58,054 nt of DNA from Synechococcales cyanobacterium bin2.concoct.b11b12b14.033 (GCA_013298875.1 JAAFJH010000002.1:1-58054); one strand, 5' to 3'. Counted from the first letter of the stretch, positions 24,880-32,141 are shown. The notes: generated by a model from the sequence alone, not told the origin. Made by a program: numbers and translations.

Positions 24880-26220
24880 TCAAACTTTAATTTGTTCAGG
24901 TATTTTTACTTCGGGTAAATTTTTATTATTTTGCTGAAAGCCAAACCACTGCATAATTGAGCGAGCCAACCGGGTGGGATTATGTCTACCATTATAATCT
25001 TGTAATTTACTTCTAATAATAGGCTCAACACCTAAATCATTAATTGTTTCTAAGTCAATGGGAATTGGTTTTCCTTTATCTAGTTGCCAGCTTTCAGGAG
25101 CATTTAATAAAATTGCATTTAATATATTTTTATTCGTATGTGATTTAATGGCTCTTAAAAAATCGGAAGCTTTATAATTTTGGGTTTCTTTGTCTTGCAC
25201 CAAATTACAAACATAAAGCACTTTTGCTTTGGCTTCTTCAATTGATTTTAGAATTTCGGGAAATAAAAGATTTGGAATAATTGAAGTATAAAGGCTGCCA
25301 GGGCCTAAAATAATCAAATCAGCTTCTTTAATAGCCAATAAACATTCGGGTAAGGCGGCGGAAATATTAGTCGCAAAAATCTTTTTAATTAATTTGCCAC
25401 CTTCGGGTATTTTAGATTCGCCAGAAATAATAGAGCCATCCTCCATTTCAGCTTCCAAATGAACAGCTTTTAATGAAGAGGGCAATACTTTTCCGCCAGT
25501 TCTTAAAATGCGGCTAGCGAGCAAGGAAGCCTGAGCCATGTCACCCAAGCAAATATCACACAGAGCGGCTAAAAATAAATTACCCAAACTATGCCCTTTT
25601 AAACTTCCTAGTGAAAAACGGTATTGAAAGAGGGAAGTCGTTAATTCTTCTTCATCCGATAAAGCCACAATACAATTTCTAATATCTCCGGGAGGGACGA
25701 CTTTTAATTCTTCACGTAATTTGCCCGAGCTTCCGCCATCATCTCCGACCGTTACAATGGCTGTAATATTAGTCGAATAATTTTTTAAACCAATTAATAA
25801 GCTAGACAAGCCAGTTCCGCCACCAATTGCGACAATTTTAGGACCTTGACCTTTTTTTCTGGCTCTTTCAAGGGCTTTTAAAATTGATTGAGGAGTATTT
25901 GCATCACCACCAAAAGAAGAATTATCACGATTGGTAACTTCTAAAAGGGTTTGGAGAATGAGACCCAAGGAAGCAATAATTAGCGAAACACCTAAAATTA
26001 AAATTAAAGGACCACTCAAATGAGCAGGCAGAATATTAGCCACCCATCTTAAAGCCGTCCAAATCATTAAGCTAATATTAGTTAAAGGCCTGAGTTCAAG
26101 AAGTAAAGCAACTCCAAAGGCAATAAAACCAATACCCAAAGAAAATATAATAATCCAACGTTTTAAGCCAGGTAAAAAATATTTGCCATTTAAACGGAAA
26201 CGTAAATTATTAAAAAACAT
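24880..26220 (-). CDS. yvcK: YvcK/CofD-like gluconeogenesis-factor family protein with N-terminal membrane anchor
   Basis: 446 aa. About 110 residues containing three hydrophobic segments precede the UPF0052 core (KIVAIGGGTGLSSLL, IVTVGDDGGSSGKLR, PPGDIRNCIVALS, LGPGSLYTSIIPNLL). Confidence 0.85.
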   Translation of the reverse strand: MFFNNLRFRLNGKYFLPGLKRWIIIFSLGIGFIAFGVALLLELRPLTNISLMIWTALRWVANILPAHLSGPLILILGVSLIIASLGLILQTLLEVTNRDNSSFGGDANTPQSILKALERARKKGQGPKIVAIGGGTGLSSLLIGLKNYSTNITAIVTVGDDGGSSGKLREELKVVPPGDIRNCIVALSDEEELTTSLFQYRFSLGSLKGHSLGNLFLAALCDICLGDMAQASLLASRILRTGGKVLPSSLKAVHLEAEMEDGSIISGESKIPEGGKLIKKIFATNISAALPECLLAIKEADLIILGPGSLYTSIIPNLLFPEILKSIEEAKAKVLYVCNLVQDKETQNYKASDFLRAIKSHTNKNILNAILLNAPESWQLDKGKPIPIDLETINDLGVEPIIRSKLQDYNGRHNPTRLARSIMQWFGFQQNNKNLPEVKIPEQIKV

Positions 26221-26328: not shown

Positions 26329-27423
26329 ATGCTTCAAGCTGGAATAGTCGGCCTTCCTAATGTGGGCAAATCAACTTTATTTAATGCCTTAACTCAAAAC
26401 AATTCGGCTGAAGCTGCTAATTTCCCATTCTGCACAATTGAACCAAATATCGGTATTGTTAATGTCCCCGATTCAAGGTTAGAAAAACTAAAAGAAATTT
26501 TTAATTCACAAAAAATAATACCAGCCGCTTTTAAATTTGTAGATATTGCCGGCTTAGTTAAAGGTGCTAGTGAGGGAGCGGGGCTTGGGAATAAGTTTTT
26601 GAGTCATATCCGAGAAGTTGATTCAATTGTGCATGTTATTAGATGTTTTGAAGACGAAAATATCCACCACGTAGACGGTTCCGTGAATGCTATTAGAGAT
26701 TTTGAAACTATTAGGCTGGAGCTGGCTTTAGCGGATATGAGCGTTATGCAAAAAAGAATAGAAAAAATTAATAAACAAGCCAAAAGTGGCGATAAAAATT
26801 ATCAGCGGGAATTTGAAATTTTAAGCGAAATAAATAATAATTTTGAAAACCTAAATATTAAATTACCTGAATTAAGCCCAGCAGACACAGCTTTAATTGC
26901 ACATTTAAATTTATTAAGCTTCAAACCATTTATTATTGCAGCCAACTTAAAAGAAGAAGAATTAGCCAAGCCTTTAGACAATCCACATTATTTGACTTTG
27001 AGTAAATATATTGATAAAAACATTCAGTTGATAGCCATTTCAGCCCAAATTGAAGCGGAGTTAATTGAATTGCCTGAAGAAGAAACAAATGAATACTTAA
27101 AAAGTTTGGGTGTTAATGAATCAGGTGTTAAAAGTTTAATTCAGGCTTCATTTAAAGCTTTAGGACTTATGACTTATTTTACTGCCGGTGAGATGGAAGC
27201 TAGAGCCTGGACAATTCCTATTAACTGCAAAGCACCTCAAGCAGCCGGAGCAATTCACACAGACTTTGAAAGAGGCTTTATTAAAGCAGAAGTTGTTGGC
27301 TGGGATGACTTATTAAATTATGGTACAAAACAATTAGCTAAAGATGCTGGAAAAGTAAGATTGGAAGGCAAAGATTATACCGTTCAGGGCGGAGATATTA
27401 TTGAGTTTAAGTTTAATGTTTAG
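26329..27423 (+). CDS. ychF: Ribosome-binding ATPase YchF
   Basis: 364 aa with [30 protein letters not shown] and a C-terminal TGS-like domain ([31 protein letters not shown]). Confidence 0.95.
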
Positions 27424-27471: not shown

Positions 27472-28878
27472 ATGAATAACTCAGAACCACCTCAAATTAG
27501 AGTAAGAATAGAAGATTTCAGAGCCGTTAAAAGTGCGGATATTATTATTGATGGAATTACTGTCGTTACTGGTGAAAATGGTTGTGGAAAAAGCACTTTA
27601 TCTAAATTATTATATTTTTTTTATAAAACAGTTGCTGATTATGATCTATTAGTTTCAGAAGCCGCTAGAAATGAATTAACAGCTCCTCTTTACGTAGCAG
27701 GAAGTTTCTTGTATTCGTGTTTCTCTCCTATACTTCCTAAACCAAGAATTAAAGAAAGTCAAGATAAAAAAGAAGATGAAGATTATGAATGGTATGAAAA
27801 TACTAAGCTATTGTTTTTTGATTTTCACGTAGGCAAGAACAAAGAATTTATTCTGTCAAAAGAGAAGCTTGAACATTTTAATATTACTTTTAATCAAATG
27901 GAAAAAGTCTTTGAAGAGTTTTCTTTAGACAAAAAGCAAGAGAGCGAAACGGAATACAAACTGTTTTTTAATGGATTGAAGCAATTGCAGCGGGATATGA
28001 AAGTGTTGTTAAATGACAAAAGCGAAGAAGAAATATCACCAAGACAAATAATTCCTAATATCAAACAGCTTATAGAATCCAGATTTAAAGAGGCTTTTGA
28101 TAAGATGGAAATGAGACCAGCTAATTTATTTTGGAATGGATTTAAAAGATTGTTCAATGAAAAGAATGAACCTAATCTTGAAATTTATGAATATGAAGAA
28201 CAATTAATATCTCCAGAAAAGAAAGATTTATCACGCTCTTTCTCTGTGGATAAAGTAATTTACATTGATACTCCGATGGCTATTAATGTTAAAAACCAAA
28301 ATGATTACTGGGATGATTTAAATAATTTATTAGAAACCAAAGATAAATCCCCTCTCTTTCAGGAAAATAAACATAGTAATTTATCTGATTTAATTAGTGG
28401 TGGGGTAATTAAAGGCGAAGCTTCTTTTAAAGATGATGTTTTGTCTAGTAAATTTAGTTTTAAACGAGCAGACGGAAAAACATTTGATTTGATGGAATGT
28501 GCTACTGGAATAAAGTCTTTTTCTATATTGCAAATATTACTAAAGAATGGCTCTCTGACAAATAAAACATTATTAATAATAGATGAGCCAGAGTCGCATT
28601 TGCACCCACAATGGATTATTGAATATGCCAGAATTTTAGTACTTTTAAATAAACAAATTGGAGTGAAAATATTTTTAGCAAGCCATGATCCAGACTTGGT
28701 TAGTGCAATTAAGTATATCTCTGAAAAAGAAGAAATTCAAAATAATGTTAATTTCTATTTAGCTGAGAAAGGTGAAGAAGAGTACTTATATAATTACAAA
28801 CACTTAAAACAAGATATAGAGCCTATCTTTGCGTCTTTTAATATTGCTATTGATCTAGTTAATAGATACGGAATTTAA
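27472..28878 (+). CDS. ABC/SMC-like AAA_15/AAA_21-type ATPase with long insert between Walker A and signature/Walker B
   Basis: 468 aa with Walker A VVTGENGCGKSTLSK and a charged helical insert of about 300 aa. Then a signature-like ATGIKSFSIL, Walker B LLIIDEPESHLHPQW, and H-loop LASHDPDL. No transmembrane or transporter partner. Confidence 0.8.
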   Translation: MNNSEPPQIRVRIEDFRAVKSADIIIDGITVVTGENGCGKSTLSKLLYFFYKTVADYDLLVSEAARNELTAPLYVAGSFLYSCFSPILPKPRIKESQDKKEDEDYEWYENTKLLFFDFHVGKNKEFILSKEKLEHFNITFNQMEKVFEEFSLDKKQESETEYKLFFNGLKQLQRDMKVLLNDKSEEEISPRQIIPNIKQLIESRFKEAFDKMEMRPANLFWNGFKRLFNEKNEPNLEIYEYEEQLISPEKKDLSRSFSVDKVIYIDTPMAINVKNQNDYWDDLNNLLETKDKSPLFQENKHSNLSDLISGGVIKGEASFKDDVLSSKFSFKRADGKTFDLMECATGIKSFSILQILLKNGSLTNKTLLIIDEPESHLHPQWIIEYARILVLLNKQIGVKIFLASHDPDLVSAIKYISEKEEIQNNVNFYLAEKGEEEYLYNYKHLKQDIEPIFASFNIAIDLVNRYGI

Positions 28879-28880
28879 AA

Positions 28881-29384
28881 ATGAAATATTGCGAACAAAC
28901 TACAAGAGAACATGAAATAAATAAATTACTAATAATAGCTGTTTATCTTCTATTAATCAGCTTATAGAAAGAGATGATGAAACAAAAACTAATTGTATTT
29001 TTGATAATAATGAAATTGTAATTGATCTTGATGAAGTTGAAAAAGTAATGGCAAAAAGTGAATGTAGAAGCCAATTAAATAAGTCTATGGATATGTGTTT
29101 TGGCTTGATAGGTAAAGAACCAAATAAATATATTCTTTTGGTCGAATTCAGATTTAATTATCAAAATATGAAAAACTTAAACAAAGCTGAGTTAACAGGC
29201 AAAGTAGAAGGTTCCAAAAGACATATTTTAAAAGACAATATGTTAAATCAAAGACGAATATATATTTATTTTCCAGTCTAATTTAAAAGAACAAGCAAGA
29301 TTAAGGTTACAAAGAATGAATCCCAAAGTTCCGAATGAGTATATTGTTATGAGTATTCAAGAACTAAAAGAGAGGTATTTTTAA
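28881..29384 (+). pseudogene. Unknown ~167-codon gene abutting the ATPase, readable only by joining three reading frames
   Basis: The ATG at 28881 lies 2 nt after the ATPase stop. Frame 0 gives MKYCEQTTREHEINKL.. and stops at 28965. Frame 2 is open 28925..29281 (..ITNNSCLSSINQLIERDDETKTNCIFDNNEIVIDLDEVEKVMAKSECRSQLNK..KYILLVEFRFNYQNMKNLNKAELTGKVEGSKRHILKDNMLNQ). Frame 0 is open again 29247..29384 (KDEYIFIFQSNLKEQARLRLQRMNPKVPNEYIVMSIQELKERYF). Both shifts fall in A-rich runs. The track ORF 29048..29281 is the middle fragment. Confidence 0.55.
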
Positions 29385-29498
29385 TTTTATCTTCTTAATT
29401 TAGGTGCCACTTTGTCCCTTAGCTTTATTTTGAAATTATTTAATTCATTTTTGGGCTATATATAATAATTAAGTTTTTTAATTTTTTAATATTTAAGC

Positions 29499-30614
29499 AT
29501 GAAACAAAACTTATATTTAAGCGGCCCAGATACAGCAATTCCACATAATCAAACTCTTGGGGATTATAAACCTACCAATAGCTGGCGTTCAGCAGTTTTT
29601 CATTTTTGTTTAAAGCATGGAATTCAAGTTATTAATCCACTGACGGAAGTAAAAAGCAAATTAAATACTAATGGAAAATCTTTTTTGGCAGAAGACCGTA
29701 CCCGCAAGGAAGTAGAAAAAGCTTTTAGTTTAATTGACCGCTGTGATTTTGTTTTAACCAGCTTATATTCCCCGGATGAATCAAGTTGGATTCCTTTAGT
29801 TTATGCACACAATAAAGGTAAGCACACTATTGTCTGGACTCCTTTTCCACTTAGCCCGTGGCTGGCTTCTTATTCTAAAGCTTCATTTGAAAGGCTGGAA
29901 TCTGCTTTTGAATATTTAATTAGTAAATCTCAACATGATCAAAAAAGTATTATTGACTGGTCAATTCAATATGAAAATAGCTTAAAAGAAAAATCTGGCA
30001 AATTCCCCATTGAAGGAGAAACAGATTTTCAATATTTTCCGGGTGAACAAAAAAAACATATTTTACTTATGGCTCCCCATGCAACTTCTTATTGGCATTT
30101 GGGTTCTTTAAACGAAGCTGAAAATTATACTGGGGCTTTGACCGCCGCAACTAGTCGTTTGGTTGATTGCCAAGCTATTATTAGCTCTTATTGTAATGCC
30201 GAAGATTCTTTATATACTCTAAATAATTTATCTTCTTTTAAAGCCAGTACTAGTCCGTTAATTGCTTTTAGCCAGAAAATGGTTGAATTGAATAAAGTAA
30301 AATTGATTATAGTTGTACGCAGTAAACCTTGGTCAGAAAGCCGCAACTTAACCGTAAATATAAATAGTTTGAATAGTGATCACGCCTCCATAAATCAATT
30401 CAAACAAATATTAGAGCATAAAACTTCAATTCGCCAAATAGAAAGCTGTTTTAAATTTATGGATGAGGAATCGGCTCTTGCTAAATTAGAAAAATTCTTT
30501 GGAATACCAATTGTTGAAATCAATATTCACAAGTCTTTTTTAATTCCTGAAATGCAAAGAGCCAATTATAATAATTTAATTTCTGCTTTGGAAGAGATTA
30601 TGGACGAATTATAA
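29499..30614 (+). CDS. Two-domain hypothetical protein (N-terminal nucleoside 2-deoxyribosyltransferase-like Rossmannoid, tentative)
   Basis: 371 aa. The N-terminus runs NLYLSGPD...W........GIQVINP...LIDRCDFVLTSL...DESSWIPLVYAHNKGKHTIVW. This follows the layout of NDT-like/DUF4406-type proteins (Y-L-[AS]-G-P start, late CD-x-V and G-K-x-[IV] segments). I do not see the usual catalytic Glu context. The C-terminal half (HILLMAPHATSYWH...ENYTGALTAATSRL) is unassigned. Confidence 0.6.
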   Translation: MKQNLYLSGPDTAIPHNQTLGDYKPTNSWRSAVFHFCLKHGIQVINPLTEVKSKLNTNGKSFLAEDRTRKEVEKAFSLIDRCDFVLTSLYSPDESSWIPLVYAHNKGKHTIVWTPFPLSPWLASYSKASFERLESAFEYLISKSQHDQKSIIDWSIQYENSLKEKSGKFPIEGETDFQYFPGEQKKHILLMAPHATSYWHLGSLNEAENYTGALTAATSRLVDCQAIISSYCNAEDSLYTLNNLSSFKASTSPLIAFSQKMVELNKVKLIIVVRSKPWSESRNLTVNINSLNSDHASINQFKQILEHKTSIRQIESCFKFMDEESALAKLEKFFGIPIVEINIHKSFLIPEMQRANYNNLISALEEIMDEL

Positions 30615-30623
30615 AAACTATTT

Positions 30624-30923
30624 TTAATAGTAATAGTTAGAATAAGCATAATTATTTCTTTGATATTGCGGACAGTAATAACTCTCTCTATAATGTCTTG
30701 GGGCAGGTCTTCTGTATCTGTCTACTGGCGGACGATAATAATTATTATTTCGACGAATTTGATAAGTATTATATCCAGCTAATGCCAAAGCACTTCCTCC
30801 CAGAGCGACTCCTGTTATAGCAAGCCCCCGACCACCATGAGCCTGTGCTGATTGTATATTAAAAAAACAAGCACTAAATAAGCAGGCCATTAAAATGCTT
30901 AAATTTACAAATTTATTTTTCAT
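30624..30923 (-). CDS. Small secreted/membrane protein: glycine-zipper segment plus Tyr/Arg/Asn-rich tail
   Basis: 99 aa with a signal peptide ending AQA, a glycine zipper GLAITGVALGGSALALAG, and the tail YQIRRNNNYYRPPVDRYRRPAPRHYRESYYCPQYQRNNYAYSNYYY. Confidence 0.55.
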   Translation of the reverse strand: MKNKFVNLSILMACLFSACFFNIQSAQAHGGRGLAITGVALGGSALALAGYNTYQIRRNNNYYRPPVDRYRRPAPRHYRESYYCPQYQRNNYAYSNYYY

Positions 30924-30970: not shown

Positions 30971-31261
30971 TCAATAATGTTCTCTGATTTTTACTCTATA
31001 TCGACTATCTTCGGGATAATTATCTTTGGAGCGACCAGATGTCCCATTAGTTGGCTCATATATGATTTGAGGATAATTGGGATTGGTATTTACGTGCGTG
31101 CCTGCGGGTGGATAATTTGATGGATAACGATTAGAATATTGACCATTATTAAGAGGTACTGATGGATAATTAGATGGGTATCCATAGTAATCAGCTTTGG
31201 CCGAAGCAATACTAACCACACTGAAGACAATATAAAATAATAGTAATATTATCTTTTTCAT
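30971..31261 (-). CDS. Small secreted protein with repeated N-Y-P motifs
   Basis: 96 aa with a signal peptide (LLLFYIVFSVVSIASAKA). The mature region holds GYPSNYPS, RYPSNYPP, NPNYPQ and DNYPE repeats. Confidence 0.55.
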   Translation of the reverse strand: MKKIILLLFYIVFSVVSIASAKADYYGYPSNYPSVPLNNGQYSNRYPSNYPPAGTHVNTNPNYPQIIYEPTNGTSGRSKDNYPEDSRYRVKIREHY

Positions 31262-31478: not shown

Positions 31479-32141
31479 TTAATGAAGCCAGCCATTTAAA
31501 GTAAAACGTGAATTCATAAACTCCTGAGATGGGCAATTTATTTTAAGCACTTCATGCCAATATTTGCTTTCAAAGAAAATAACTCGATTGCGCAAAGGTT
31601 CAATATAAACTCCCTCATTGGCTCTTTCTAAGGGGCTGCAATCTTTTGCATAATGATTCCACAAAAATAATTCGCCTCCCTCAAAAGACTTGGGTTCTTG
31701 GTAAAAATAATAAACAAATGTTAAATTTCTTAAGCTTACTCTGGTGCCAGTATTAGCAGCATAATCAGTGTGAGCTGTATAAAAGTGTCCATCATTATGA
31801 GCAGTTAATTGGCATTCATAACCTTTATTCCAATCCATTTCATAATTAAATCTTTGCTTCACAGGTTCAGCGTATTTTAATAATTGCAATCTAAAAAAGC
31901 TATAAATTGGCTCAAAATCAAATAAAACTAAGGAATCTCTTTTTTGTTTATCCAAAGAACGTGAATTATCATCTCCCGTTTCAGTAGTCAAAAATCTGGA
32001 TTGCCATTTTTCAACTAAATATAAAATTGAATTAACTTCATGCTCCGCCAAAACATTGTCAAAAATTAAAGGATTCGCTTCAATAATAATTTGATTATCA
32101 TTCTGATTAAGGATTGTTGATTCTTGCTCTGTTAATGACAT
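31479..32141 (-). CDS. 2OG-Fe(II) oxygenase (prolyl-4-hydroxylase-like superfamily)
   Basis: 220 aa with YTAHTDY (HxD), GGELFLW, VIFFESKYWHEV (distal His) and SRFTLNGWL (2OG-binding Arg context). Confidence 0.75.
   Translation of the reverse strand: MSLTEQESTILNQNDNQIIIEANPLIFDNVLAEHEVNSILYLVEKWQSRFLTTETGDDNSRSLDKQKRDSLVLFDFEPIYSFFRLQLLKYAEPVKQRFNYEMDWNKGYECQLTAHNDGHFYTAHTDYAANTGTRVSLRNLTFVYYFYQEPKSFEGGELFLWNHYAKDCSPLERANEGVYIEPLRNRVIFFESKYWHEVLKINCPSQEFMNSRFTLNGWLH

What the first reader, a model, noticed from the sequence alone, without database searches (positions are those of the whole stretch)
27472..30614. ATPase-centred accessory islet: ABC/AAA_15-type ATPase, abutting unknown partner gene and two-domain ORFan (candidate uncharacterised, possibly decaying, defence-type module)
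Seen in sequence: the housekeeping run (ilvD, yvcK, ychF) ends at 27423. It resumes with kdsB-fabI-ftsZ from 32430. Everything in between is ORFan-like. The first gene is a soluble ATPase with Walker A GENGCGKST, a signature-like ATGIKSFS, Walker B LLIIDEPESHLHP and H-loop ASHDP. These are split by a charged helical insert of about 300 aa. A second reading frame starts 2 nt after its stop, which implies an operon. A 371-aa two-domain protein follows about 115 nt later on the same strand. Established knowledge: ATPases with this architecture (AAA_15/AAA_21, SMC-like) are the NTPase subunit of two-gene anti-phage systems such as Septu PtuA, Gabija GajA, PARIS AriA and the RloB- or DUF4276-associated pairs. 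In those systems the partner is usually a nuclease or TOPRIM protein. Inference: I can find no HNH, TOPRIM, PD-(D/E)xK or RloB-type motif in the partner here, and the third gene carries a possible nucleoside-2-deoxyribosyltransferase-like module. The trio could therefore be a variant or undescribed system.
Basis: partly seen in the sequence, partly recalled or inferred. Interest (0 to 1): 0.7.

Follow-up and report, generated by a model that had tools for sequence, protein, structure and literature searches.

The report
Decayed ATPase–nuclease-like two-gene cassette

Summary
The ORF at 27472-28878 is an intact 468-aa AAA_15/AAA_21 ABC ATPase. A partner gene starts 2 nt after its stop (28881-29384) and is broken by two frameshifts. 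A 371-aa ORF follows at 29499-30614.

ATPase and partner form a strictly conserved two-gene operon. The partner lies directly downstream in 78 of 78 metagenome loci with room for it and in all 13 other loci. The two proteins diverge in step (Mantel r = 0.80).

The partner family (about 165 aa, 465 clusters at 50% identity) matches nothing in Pfam, NCBIfam, PADLOC or PHROGs. It has near-invariant D51, E54, D70, (E/D)88-x-(K/R)90 and K107. Its AlphaFold model is confident (pLDDT 96.4). That model has only weak structural neighbours, mostly PD-(D/E)xK nucleases. The closest known analogue is HEC-02 (ABC ATPase plus NERD nuclease).

The 371-aa gene is conserved in Caenarcaniphilales and sits in other contexts without the pair, so there is no trio.

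In this organism the effector gene is dead. Two sibling assemblies share its frameshifts and also carry a frameshift in the ATPase.

Verdict: a decayed copy of an undescribed variant of the ATPase-plus-nuclease conflict modules. Defence function is inferred, not shown.

The parts
27472..28878 (+). Intact 468-aa soluble ABC-type ATPase (AAA_15/AAA_21), first gene of the cassette and the presumed sensor/regulator subunit
   Evidence: ORF. Pfam AAA_21 E 6.6e-16 and AAA_15 E 7.2e-15. PADLOC HEC-02A E 1.2e-29, NsnB E 4.7e-21, AriA E 1.2e-17. It aligns end to end with orthologues of 426-460 aa, and all motifs are kept.
27571..27597 (+). Walker A motif GENGCGKST (aa 34-42)
   Evidence: G34, E35, N36, G37, G39, K40, S41 and T42 are invariant in the 8-sequence alignment.
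28501..28524 (+). ABC signature-like motif ATGIKSFS (aa 344-351)
   Evidence: A344, T345, G346 and K348 are invariant.
28570..28608 (+). Walker B / D-loop LLIIDEPESHLHP (aa 367-379)
   Evidence: I369, I370, D371, E372, P373, E374 and S375 are invariant.
28678..28692 (+). H-loop ASHDP (aa 403-407)
   Evidence: A403, S404 and H405 are invariant.
28005..28005 (+). Polymorphic site in the ATPase gene. Two other assemblies of the same organism (L025, L026) carry an extra G here, which frameshifts the ATPase; the window copy is in frame.
28881..29384 (+). Pseudogene of the roughly 165-aa partner (predicted PD-(D/E)xK-like effector), starting 2 nt after the ATPase stop
   Evidence: Three-frame translations. 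HMM hits to two pieces at E 3e-35 and E 5e-17. The frame-corrected protein is 63% identical to intact P0121.
28925..28926 (+). First frameshift: 1 nt missing relative to the intact orthologue, in AAATAAAT^TACTAAT
   Evidence: DNA alignment with L001 and segment coordinates. L025 and L026 are identical here.
29240..29246 (+). Second frameshift: net +1 (4 extra nt relative to L001 in a variable loop). The unshifted frame runs into a stop codon at 29279-29281.
   Evidence: L025 and L026 are identical here.
29024..29215 (+). Region that still encodes the family's conserved charged residues: DLDEVE (D51, E54), SMD (D70), LLVEFRFNY (E88, R90) and GKVEGS (K107)
   Evidence: Conservation counts in 133 family members and coordinates.
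29499..30614 (+). NOT part of the cassette. This 371-aa protein is conserved in Caenarcaniphilales, has a sub-threshold nucleoside 2-deoxyribosyltransferase-like N-terminal region, and is the first gene of the neighbouring syntenic block.
   Evidence: Homologues at 44-99% identity; the three with an organism name are Caenarcaniphilales MAGs. They occur in other contexts without the pair. Collinearity with relative L012 starts at 29439. PF15891 scores E 0.0015 and 19.3 bits against a 30-bit cut-off.

Best explanation
Positions 27472-29384 are a two-gene cassette. The first gene is a soluble ABC-type ATPase. The second is translationally coupled to it and encodes a roughly 165-aa protein.

I read the second protein as a very divergent PD-(D/E)xK (restriction-endonuclease-like) metal-dependent nuclease. 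By analogy with HEC-02, PARIS and Septu, the ATPase would use its long variable helical insert to sense an invader. It would hold or license the small nuclease, which cuts nucleic acid once triggered. That would make the pair a defence or abortive-infection module that moves between genomes as a unit.

In this Caenarcaniphilales-type genome the cassette is dead or dying. The effector gene carries two frameshifts, and sibling populations also carry a frameshift in the ATPase. The downstream 371-aa gene belongs to the host's own conserved gene set and has nothing to do with the cassette.

Shown here: the obligatory pairing, co-divergence, pseudogenisation and independence of the third gene. Inferred: nuclease chemistry, the sensor-effector division of labour and the defence role.
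For: Pairing:
- The partner lies directly downstream on the same strand in 78 of 80 metagenome loci found with the ATPase alone. The other 2 have under 45 nt of contig left.
- The pair is together in all 13 non-redundant loci from other searches.
- In the called genes the two abut or overlap: 2-3 nt gaps, 4-nt overlaps, and a 14-nt overlap in L009.
- Distances of the two proteins correlate over 76 pairs: Mantel r = 0.80, with 0 of 2000 permutations as high.

ATPase class: Pfam AAA_21/AAA_15. The best PADLOC hits are all defence ATPases.

Partner:
- The family has 465 clusters at 50% identity, all stand-alone at about 165 aa.
- D51 and D70 are each present in 132 of 133 sequences, and E54 in 123. 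(E/D)88, (K/R)90 and K107 are present in all 133.
- The AlphaFold2 model has pLDDT 96.4 and pTM 0.91. D51/E54 lie on a helix, D70 lies at the start of a strand, and E88-x-K/R90 closes the next strand of the hairpin.
- Weak Foldseek neighbours are mostly PD-(D/E)xK nucleases: Can2, HamA, MUS81-EME1, EcoO109I, BsmI, Cap4, an Mrr-like protein, VRR-NUC and DUF2726.
- Single members give weak Pfam hits to HamA and SduA_C.

Precedent: HEC-02 is an ABC ATPase plus a NERD (PD-(D/E)xK) nuclease. Both genes were required for phage defence (bioRxiv 10.1101/2024.01.29.577857).

Mobility: the cassette sits at different sites amid housekeeping genes in Melainabacteria, Flavobacteriales, Sphingobacterium and Parabacteroides.

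Decay: both frameshifts are present in three assemblies.

Third gene unrelated.
Against: - No structural or sequence match for the partner is significant. The best Foldseek E-values are 0.038 (PDB) and 0.013 (BFVD), with TM-scores of about 0.3. The PDB profile search gives E 0.72. The Pfam consensus scan gives nothing relevant.
- The nuclease call therefore rests on a motif pattern and topology.
- In 50 of 133 members, including this lineage, the 'K' of ExK is R. That is unusual for this superfamily.
- Defence-island association is weak. Only about 9 of 88 immediate neighbours are defence-type genes, and most are housekeeping.
- No copy was found on plasmids, phages or IMG/VR contigs with the queries used.
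- No experiment exists for this family.
Confidence: 0.6

Rival explanations
1. One reading: a three-gene system in which the ATPase, the partner and the 371-aa NDT-like protein work together.
For: All three genes are on the same strand and the third starts 114 nt after the partner. There is a weak PF15891 (Nuc_deoxyri_tr2) similarity at E 0.0015.
Against: The 371-aa family occurs in at least six other genomic contexts with no ATPase pair nearby. None of the loci that carry the pair, other than this organism's own copies, matches the 371-aa HMM. The relative L012 shares the 371-aa gene and the two small genes after it, but collinearity begins at 29439, after the partner pseudogene.
Confidence: 0.03
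2. The pair is a selfish addiction or toxin-antitoxin-like module, or another inter-element conflict module, rather than an anti-phage system. The small protein would be a toxin restrained by the ATPase.
For: It is a solitary, compact two-gene cassette found at many unrelated chromosomal sites, mostly next to housekeeping genes rather than in defence islands. The gene pair overlaps tightly. It is readily lost by frameshifts here.
Against: AAA_15/AAA_21 ATPase pairs that have been tested (HEC-02, HEC-03, PARIS, Septu) act in phage defence. No copy was detected on plasmids or phages. Here the presumed toxin gene broke in every assembly while the ATPase is still intact in one. An addiction model does not forbid this order, but it does not specifically predict it either.
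Confidence: 0.15
3. The pair is a housekeeping DNA repair or recombination accessory: an SMC/RecF/SbcC-like ATPase with a small nuclease.
For: The ATPase gives weak hits to SMC_N, RecF and Rad50 models. Neighbours often include RuvB, LysS and other core genes.
Against: Those hits cover only the Walker A region and fall far below the curated cut-offs. Distribution is patchy and the site differs between lineages. The relative L012 does not carry the pair next to its copy of the 371-aa block. The gene is dispensable here, since it is frameshifted.
Confidence: 0.08
4. The partner is not a pseudogene. The two frame changes would be assembly errors or programmed frameshifts, and the cassette would be functional in this organism.
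For: The corrected reading frame has no internal stop and keeps every conserved residue, so any decay is very recent.
Against: The same two indels appear in the window and in two separate Logan assemblies from different runs. Those assemblies differ from the window elsewhere, so they are not copies of it. The second change is not a simple homopolymer slip. All 78 orthologous loci read through in one frame, so there is no conserved recoding site.
Confidence: 0.06

Closest known systems
HEC-02 (Hma-embedded candidate 02; ABC ATPase HEC-02A + NERD-domain PD-(D/E)xK nuclease HEC-02B; Payne et al., bioRxiv 10.1101/2024.01.29.577857)
   Same: It is a two-gene operon of a soluble ABC ATPase and a small separate protein with a (D/E)xK-type signature. 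The HEC-02A models are the best PADLOC match of the window ATPase (E 1.2e-29). In HEC-02 both genes are needed for defence.
   Different: The partner matches no HEC-02B or NERD model even at E <= 10. The ATPase match covers only part of the model (aa 288-435 against positions 170-305 of 338). The ATPase here is about 100 aa longer, with a different insert. The cassette is not embedded in Hachiman-type (Hma) loci.
PARIS (AriA ABC ATPase + AriB DUF4435 TOPRIM nuclease)
   Same: An AAA_15/AAA_21 ATPase is paired with a separate nuclease effector. AriA models hit at E 1.2e-17 over the full length. The likely logic is an ATPase scaffold that holds and releases the effector (PMC11464382, abstract).
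   Different: The partner is half the size of AriB and has no TOPRIM/DUF4435 signal. It was not found on phages or satellites.
Septu (PtuA ATPase + PtuB HNH nuclease) and the retron-associated PtuAB
   Same: An AAA_15 ATPase plus a small nuclease in a two-gene operon. PtuA models hit at E 8e-14.
   Different: No HNH motif or PtuB match in the partner. The NCBIfam PtuA score is far below its cut-off (23 bits against 500).
Menshen (NsnA ParB-DUF262 + NsnB ABC ATPase + NsnC inPIN-nuclease; PMC12065111)
   Same: The NsnB model aligns with the ATPase over nearly its full length (aa 11-436, E 4.7e-21).
   Different: Menshen has three genes. No NsnA-like or NsnC-like gene accompanies this pair in 67 non-redundant loci, and the partner has no NsnC hit.
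OLD-family / Gabija GajA nucleases (ATPase fused to TOPRIM)
   Same: The ATPase class is the same. JGI annotates several homologues as 'predicted ATP-dependent endonuclease of OLD family'.
   Different: There is no TOPRIM domain. Pfam coverage is ATPase only, aa 10-410 of 468, so the JGI name is a misnomer for this family.

Membership tests
AAA_15/AAA_21 ABC-type ATPases (Pfam PF13175/PF13304) | Score above Pfam's gathering cut-off, with Walker A, signature-like motif, Walker B and H-loop present | tested here: met
   AAA_21 scores 59.7 bits (cut-off 27) and AAA_15 55.9 bits (cut-off 32.1). All motifs are conserved in the alignment.
HEC-02 | ATPase matches HEC-02A | tested here: inconclusive
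   It is the best PADLOC hit (E 1.2e-29) but comes in two stretches, and the best covers only positions 170-305 of 338. No curated cut-off is available.
HEC-02 | Partner is a NERD-domain protein (HEC-02B) | tested here: not met
   None of 12 partner members hit any PADLOC model at E <= 10. NERD is not among the Pfam families shown for 133 members or for the family consensus.
PARIS | Partner AriB with a DUF4435/TOPRIM domain | tested here: not met
   No Pfam or PADLOC hit. The partner is 165 aa, against about 300 aa for AriB.
Septu | Partner PtuB with an HNH nuclease domain | tested here: not met
   No HNH or PtuB hit. The NCBIfam PtuA equivalog scores 23 bits against a 500-bit cut-off.
Menshen | Three genes: NsnA (ParB-DUF262), NsnB and NsnC (inPIN + nuclease) | tested here: not met
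   There are only two conserved genes, and no neighbour family recurs in more than 6 of 67 loci. Definition from PMC12065111.
AbiL / RloB / DUF4276-associated pairs | Partner carries an RloB or DUF4276 domain | tested here: not met
   No such Pfam or PADLOC hit for the window partner, 133 members or the consensus.
OLD / Gabija GajA | C-terminal TOPRIM nuclease domain fused to the ATPase | tested here: not met
   Pfam finds only the ATPase domain, spanning aa 10-410 of 468.
PD-(D/E)xK (restriction endonuclease-like) superfamily, for the partner | Conserved acidic residue at the start of one strand, followed by (D/E)xK on the next strand of the hairpin, often with a Glu on the preceding helix | tested here: met
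   D70 is present in 132 of 133 sequences. (E/D)88 and (K/R)90 are present in all 133, with K in 83 and R in 50. E54 is present in 123. The positions fit the predicted helix 50-61 and strands 71-76 and 82-89.
PD-(D/E)xK (restriction endonuclease-like) superfamily, for the partner | Significant fold or profile similarity to a member with known structure | tested here: inconclusive
   The best Foldseek E-values are 0.038 (Can2) and 0.013 (an unnamed viral protein), with TM about 0.3. The weak hits are enriched in REase-fold nucleases but none is significant. HMM searches against PDB and Pfam were negative.
PD-(D/E)xK (restriction endonuclease-like) superfamily, for the partner | Metal-dependent phosphodiesterase activity | not testable with these tools
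   This needs biochemistry.
Nucleoside 2-deoxyribosyltransferase-like (PF15891), for the 371-aa protein | Score above the Pfam gathering cut-off | tested here: inconclusive
   The window protein scores 19.3 bits against a 30-bit cut-off. Three homologues carry a precomputed PF15891 hit. The PDB profile search gave nothing.

The most novel reading that the evidence does not exclude
The roughly 165-aa partner defines a new effector family. It has a confidently predicted fold with no significant neighbour among solved or viral structures. With its dedicated ABC ATPase it would form a new, fairly widespread two-gene immune system, found mainly in Bacteroidota and also in Melainabacteria. Its target or chemistry might differ from ordinary DNA cleavage (for example tRNA or another RNA, as in PARIS). 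That possibility fits the frequent Lys-to-Arg change in the ExK motif and the invariant K107.
Probability: 0.25. Interest if true: 0.65.

Novelty: new variant of a known kind. Interest (0 to 1): 0.45.

Why it matters
ABC-ATPase-plus-effector pairs are a major and still growing class of bacterial immune systems. This pair adds an effector family that no current catalogue names: Pfam 2025, NCBIfam of June 2026, PADLOC-DB 2.0 and PHROGs. The two genes are obligatorily linked across hundreds of lineages, including gut and clinical Bacteroidota such as Parabacteroides and Elizabethkingia.

If the pair is validated, genome annotation and defence-finder tools could label a gene pair now called 'AAA family ATPase' plus 'hypothetical protein'. 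It would also give a compact system for studying how such ATPases control a minimal nuclease.

For this window the practical message is more modest. The cassette is a recently inactivated passenger, and the neighbouring 371-aa gene should be studied as a Caenarcaniphilales lineage gene rather than as a defence component.

Tried and rejected
- Trio hypothesis: rejected by neighbourhood data.
- Named partner families (RloB, DUF4276, DUF4435/AriB, HNH/PtuB, NERD/HEC-02B, NsnC, PD-T4-4_B, AbiLii): no hit in Pfam, PADLOC, NCBIfam or PHROGs. This held for the window sequence, 12 and 133 family members, and the HMM consensus.
- Sequence searches of the partner profile and consensus against PDB chains: only chance-level hits (GTP cyclohydrolase I at E 0.72, a ciliate cytochrome oxidase subunit at E 0.034).
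- First AlphaFold model from 12 sequences: mediocre (pLDDT 77) and uninformative in Foldseek. The 133-sequence model was excellent but still had no significant neighbour.
- Mobile-element signatures around the cassette: no flanking direct or inverted repeats of note, no tRNA gene in the window, no Rfam match, and no excess of promoter-like or terminator-like sites.
- Plasmid, phage and IMG/VR searches with the partner: nothing found. The queries were narrow (one divergent sequence, or two peptide patterns), so this is weak negative evidence (one search failed for lack of a conserved stretch).
- A link between the nearby 2OG-Fe(II) oxygenase and the pair (one also lies near the pair in L029): rejected, because the two oxygenases are barely similar.
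- Krishnan et al. 2020, the classification of ABC ATPases (PMC7544218), may list this dyad. It is not held in the paper library, so I could not check it.
- Profile search of the 371-aa family against PDB: nothing informative.


Full report
**What is in the sequence**

The ORF at 27472-28878 (+) encodes a 468-aa protein. It carries Walker A GENGCGKST (aa 34-42), a signature-like ATGIKSFS (aa 344-351), Walker B LLIIDEPESHLHP (aa 367-379) and H-loop ASHDP (aa 403-407). Pfam places it in AAA_21 and AAA_15 above their curated cut-offs, with no other domain. It aligns end to end with 426-460-aa homologues, and every motif is kept, so the window copy is intact.

The ATPase stop codon ends at 28878, and an ATG at 28881 opens the next gene. 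That gene cannot be read in one frame. The pieces are 28881-28925, then 28925 to about 29239 in the -1 frame, then 29247-29381, with the stop at 29382-29384.

The 371-aa ORF follows at 29499-30614. Pfam confirms the flanking genes as ilvD, a CofD/YvcK-type protein, YchF, a KdsB-type cytidylyltransferase and a FabI-type reductase. G+C is 25-31% across the cassette and reaches 33-41% in the flanking genes.

**The partner is a real gene, broken here**

The closest ATPase homologues are 58-59% identical. One of them (P0003) is annotated as coming from Candidatus Melainabacteria MAGs. There, a 166-aa ORF starts 2 nt after the ATPase stop, exactly as in the window.

The frame-corrected window protein is 63% identical to it over the whole length (E 2e-75). 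It keeps all family-conserved residues. A DNA alignment shows one missing base at about 28925/6. It also shows four extra bases (net +1) at about 29240-29246, relative to the intact gene.

Two Logan assemblies from different runs (SRR9948933 and SRR9948926; L025 and L026) are 99.9% identical to the window. They are identical across the partner region, so the frameshifts are real rather than an assembly slip. Both also carry an extra G at window position 28005, which frameshifts the ATPase. The window lacks that G. The cassette is therefore decaying in this population, and the corrected frames carry no further stop codons, so the damage is recent.

**A strict two-gene module, not a trio**

- Conserved neighbours. 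A metagenome scan with an ATPase alignment returned 80 loci, down to 35% ATPase identity. In 78 of them an ORF matching the partner HMM lies immediately downstream on the same strand. The remaining two have under 45 nt of contig left.
- The reverse direction. Every locus found through the partner has the ATPase directly upstream.
- Gene spacing. In the called genes the two abut or overlap: 2-3 nt gaps, 4-nt overlaps, and a 14-nt overlap in L009.
- Co-inheritance. Pairwise distances of the two proteins over 76 pairs correlate with Mantel r = 0.80, and 0 of 2000 permutations reach that value.
- The third gene. The 371-aa protein has 15 homologues. The three with an organism name are Candidatus Caenarcaniphilales MAGs, at 44-99% identity. 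They sit in at least three different neighbourhoods with no ATPase pair.
- Synteny with the closest relative. L012 is collinear with the window only from 29439 onward. That block holds the 371-aa gene and the two small minus-strand genes after it.
- Recurrent neighbours. Among 67 non-redundant ATPase groups, no neighbour family recurs in more than 6 loci. The top recurrent families are LysS and RuvB. The 371-aa HMM hits only this organism's own copies and the Caenarcaniphilales loci.

The trio is rejected and the pair is firmly established.

**What the partner is**

An exhaustive profile search finds 465 clusters (50% identity) at E <= 0.001, essentially all stand-alone proteins of about 165 aa. 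Where a source names one, it is 'hypothetical protein', for example WP_380902642.1 from Sphingobacterium suaedae.

No model in Pfam, NCBIfam (June 2026), PADLOC-DB 2.0 or PHROGs matches the window sequence, 12 or 133 members, or the family consensus.

A 133-sequence alignment shows a compact set of near-invariant charged residues:

| Residue | Present in |
|---|---|
| D51 | 132 of 133 |
| E54 | 123 of 133 |
| D70 | 132 of 133 |
| (E/D)88 | 133 of 133 |
| (K/R)90 | 133 of 133 (83 K, 50 R) |
| K107 | 133 of 133 |

With this alignment AlphaFold2 gives a very confident model (pLDDT 96.4, pTM 0.91). Helix 50-61 carries D51 and E54. Strand 71-76 is preceded by D70. Strand 82-89 ends in E88-x-K/R90. 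Helix 101-115 carries K107, and further beta-alpha units follow.

However, no structural match is significant. The best PDB hit is the Can2 nuclease at E 0.038 with TM about 0.3. The best viral hit is at E 0.013.

The weak hits are mostly restriction-endonuclease-fold proteins: Can2, HamA, MUS81-EME1, EcoO109I, BsmI, Cap4, an Mrr-like protein, VRR-NUC, 'PD-(D/E)XK nuclease' and DUF2726. Isolated members also give weak Pfam hits to HamA and SduA_C. I therefore call the partner a probable, highly divergent PD-(D/E)xK-type nuclease. Membership is met at the motif level and inconclusive at the fold level.

**How it most likely works**

The ATPase's best matches among defence models are HEC-02A (E 1.2e-29), NsnB, AriA, PD-T4-4_A, PtuA, AbiLi and GajA. 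HEC-02 is an ABC ATPase plus a NERD (PD-(D/E)xK) nuclease. It reduced phage plaquing experimentally, and both genes were required.

By analogy with HEC-02, and with PARIS and Septu, the likely scheme has three steps:

1. The ATPase oligomer senses an infection cue through its variable roughly 300-aa insert.
2. It controls the small nuclease.
3. The nuclease then cleaves nucleic acid.

All three steps are inference. What is shown is the obligatory genetic coupling, the enzyme-like conservation pattern and the family resemblance of the ATPase.

The genomic setting gives only modest support. The cassette sits alone at many different sites, usually between housekeeping genes such as aconitase, GroEL, LysS, RuvB and TGT. 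About 9 of 88 immediate neighbours are defence-type: type I and type III restriction enzymes, GajA, Tmn, pAgo-like, SLFN/AlbA_2 and others. No copy was found on plasmids, phages or IMG/VR contigs with the narrow queries available.

A toxin-antitoxin-like or other selfish role is therefore a live rival. A housekeeping repair role is unlikely, given the patchy distribution and the loss of the gene here.

**Comparison with known systems**

- It works like HEC-02, PARIS and Septu: an ABC ATPase plus a separate nuclease.
- It is not a member of any of them, because the defining partner domains (NERD, DUF4435/TOPRIM, HNH) were tested and not found.
- It is not Menshen, which needs NsnA and NsnC.
- It is not an OLD/GajA nuclease, because it has no TOPRIM domain, despite JGI's automatic name for several homologues.
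- I could not consult the Krishnan et al. 2020 survey of ABC ATPases, which might list this dyad.

**The 371-aa gene**

It is a conserved hypothetical protein found, as far as sources name the organism, in Caenarcaniphilales. Its N-terminal region resembles Nuc_deoxyri_tr2 below threshold (19.3 bits against a 30-bit cut-off). Three homologues carry the precomputed hit, and JGI names one of them a nucleoside 2-deoxyribosyltransferase.

The C-terminal half has its own invariant residues, among them P193 and H194 of the (A/S)PH(A/S)TS(Y/F)W segment, and E208, T211 and G212 of E..TG. It has no detectable relatives in PDB. Its function is open, but it is unrelated to the cassette.

**Verdict**

The window carries a recently inactivated copy of an unnamed, fairly widespread two-gene ABC-ATPase plus nuclease-like cassette. 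This is a new variant of a well-known kind of conflict system. As a candidate defence system with a new effector family it is moderately interesting. The local copy itself is a pseudogenised passenger.

Noticed in passing
window 28005 (compare L025:113, L026): Two Logan assemblies of the same organism carry an extra G that frameshifts the ATPase gene, while the window is in frame. This is either a population polymorphism or a polishing difference. It means the ATPase may also be dying in part of the population.
   Followed up: partly
window 29499-30614 (+): This 371-aa protein is conserved at 44-99% identity; the homologues with an organism name are Caenarcaniphilales MAGs. Its N-terminal region is a sub-threshold match to a nucleoside 2-deoxyribosyltransferase-like domain. 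Its C-terminal half has invariant P193, H194, E208, T211 and G212 and has no relatives in Pfam, NCBIfam or PDB. It is a lineage-specific enzyme-like protein of unknown function.
   Followed up: partly
window 30624-30923 (-) and 30971-31261 (-): Two small proteins (99 and 96 aa) have hydrophobic, signal-peptide-like N-termini and Tyr/Asn/Pro/Arg-rich tails. They are syntenic with 83-aa and 92-aa genes in relative L012 but diverge fast (47-72% identity over the aligned parts, against 84% for the neighbouring 371-aa gene).
   Followed up: partly
window 31479-32141 (-): A 220-aa 2OG-Fe(II) oxygenase (PF13640, E 4.9e-19), so the stretch between ychF and kdsB is not all ORFan-like. A distant family member lies near the ATPase pair in L029, but the two are barely similar, so this looks like coincidence.
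   Followed up: yes
PADLOC model PDLC04146 ('HEC-02B') against window 27472-28878: A PADLOC model labelled HEC-02B matches the ATPase (E 3.3e-17, positions 201-310 of 344) rather than a nuclease. The paper describes HEC-02B as the NERD protein. The A/B labels of some PADLOC HEC-02 models may be swapped or mixed.
   Followed up: no
L027:539-2308 (Flavobacterium sp. H122): About 6.4 kb upstream of this genome's copy of the pair lies a different AAA_15 ATPase with an OLD-like TOPRIM/DUF3226 partner. It is one of the few cases where the cassette sits near another ATPase-nuclease defence pair.
   Followed up: no
L016:10186-16222 and L017 (relatives carrying the 371-aa gene): In one Caenarcaniphilales-type lineage the 371-aa gene lies next to a Cas3-like helicase (HD, ResIII, Cas3-like_C_2) and three unannotated genes on the opposite strand, plus a HicA/UPF0150 pair. 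This may be a defence island unrelated to the finding.
   Followed up: no
partner family alignment A4, residues 3-21 of P0121: The N-terminal 20 residues are unusually conserved: Y3 in 124 of 133 sequences, T8 in 128, C4 in 82, H11 in 98 and C21 in 92. This could be a small metal-binding element or the surface that contacts the ATPase.
   Followed up: no
window 24880-26220 (-): The CofD/YvcK-type protein is 446 aa. Its roughly 125-aa N-terminal extension is hydrophobic and looks membrane-spanning, and it precedes the Pfam CofD domain (aa 129-402).
   Followed up: no
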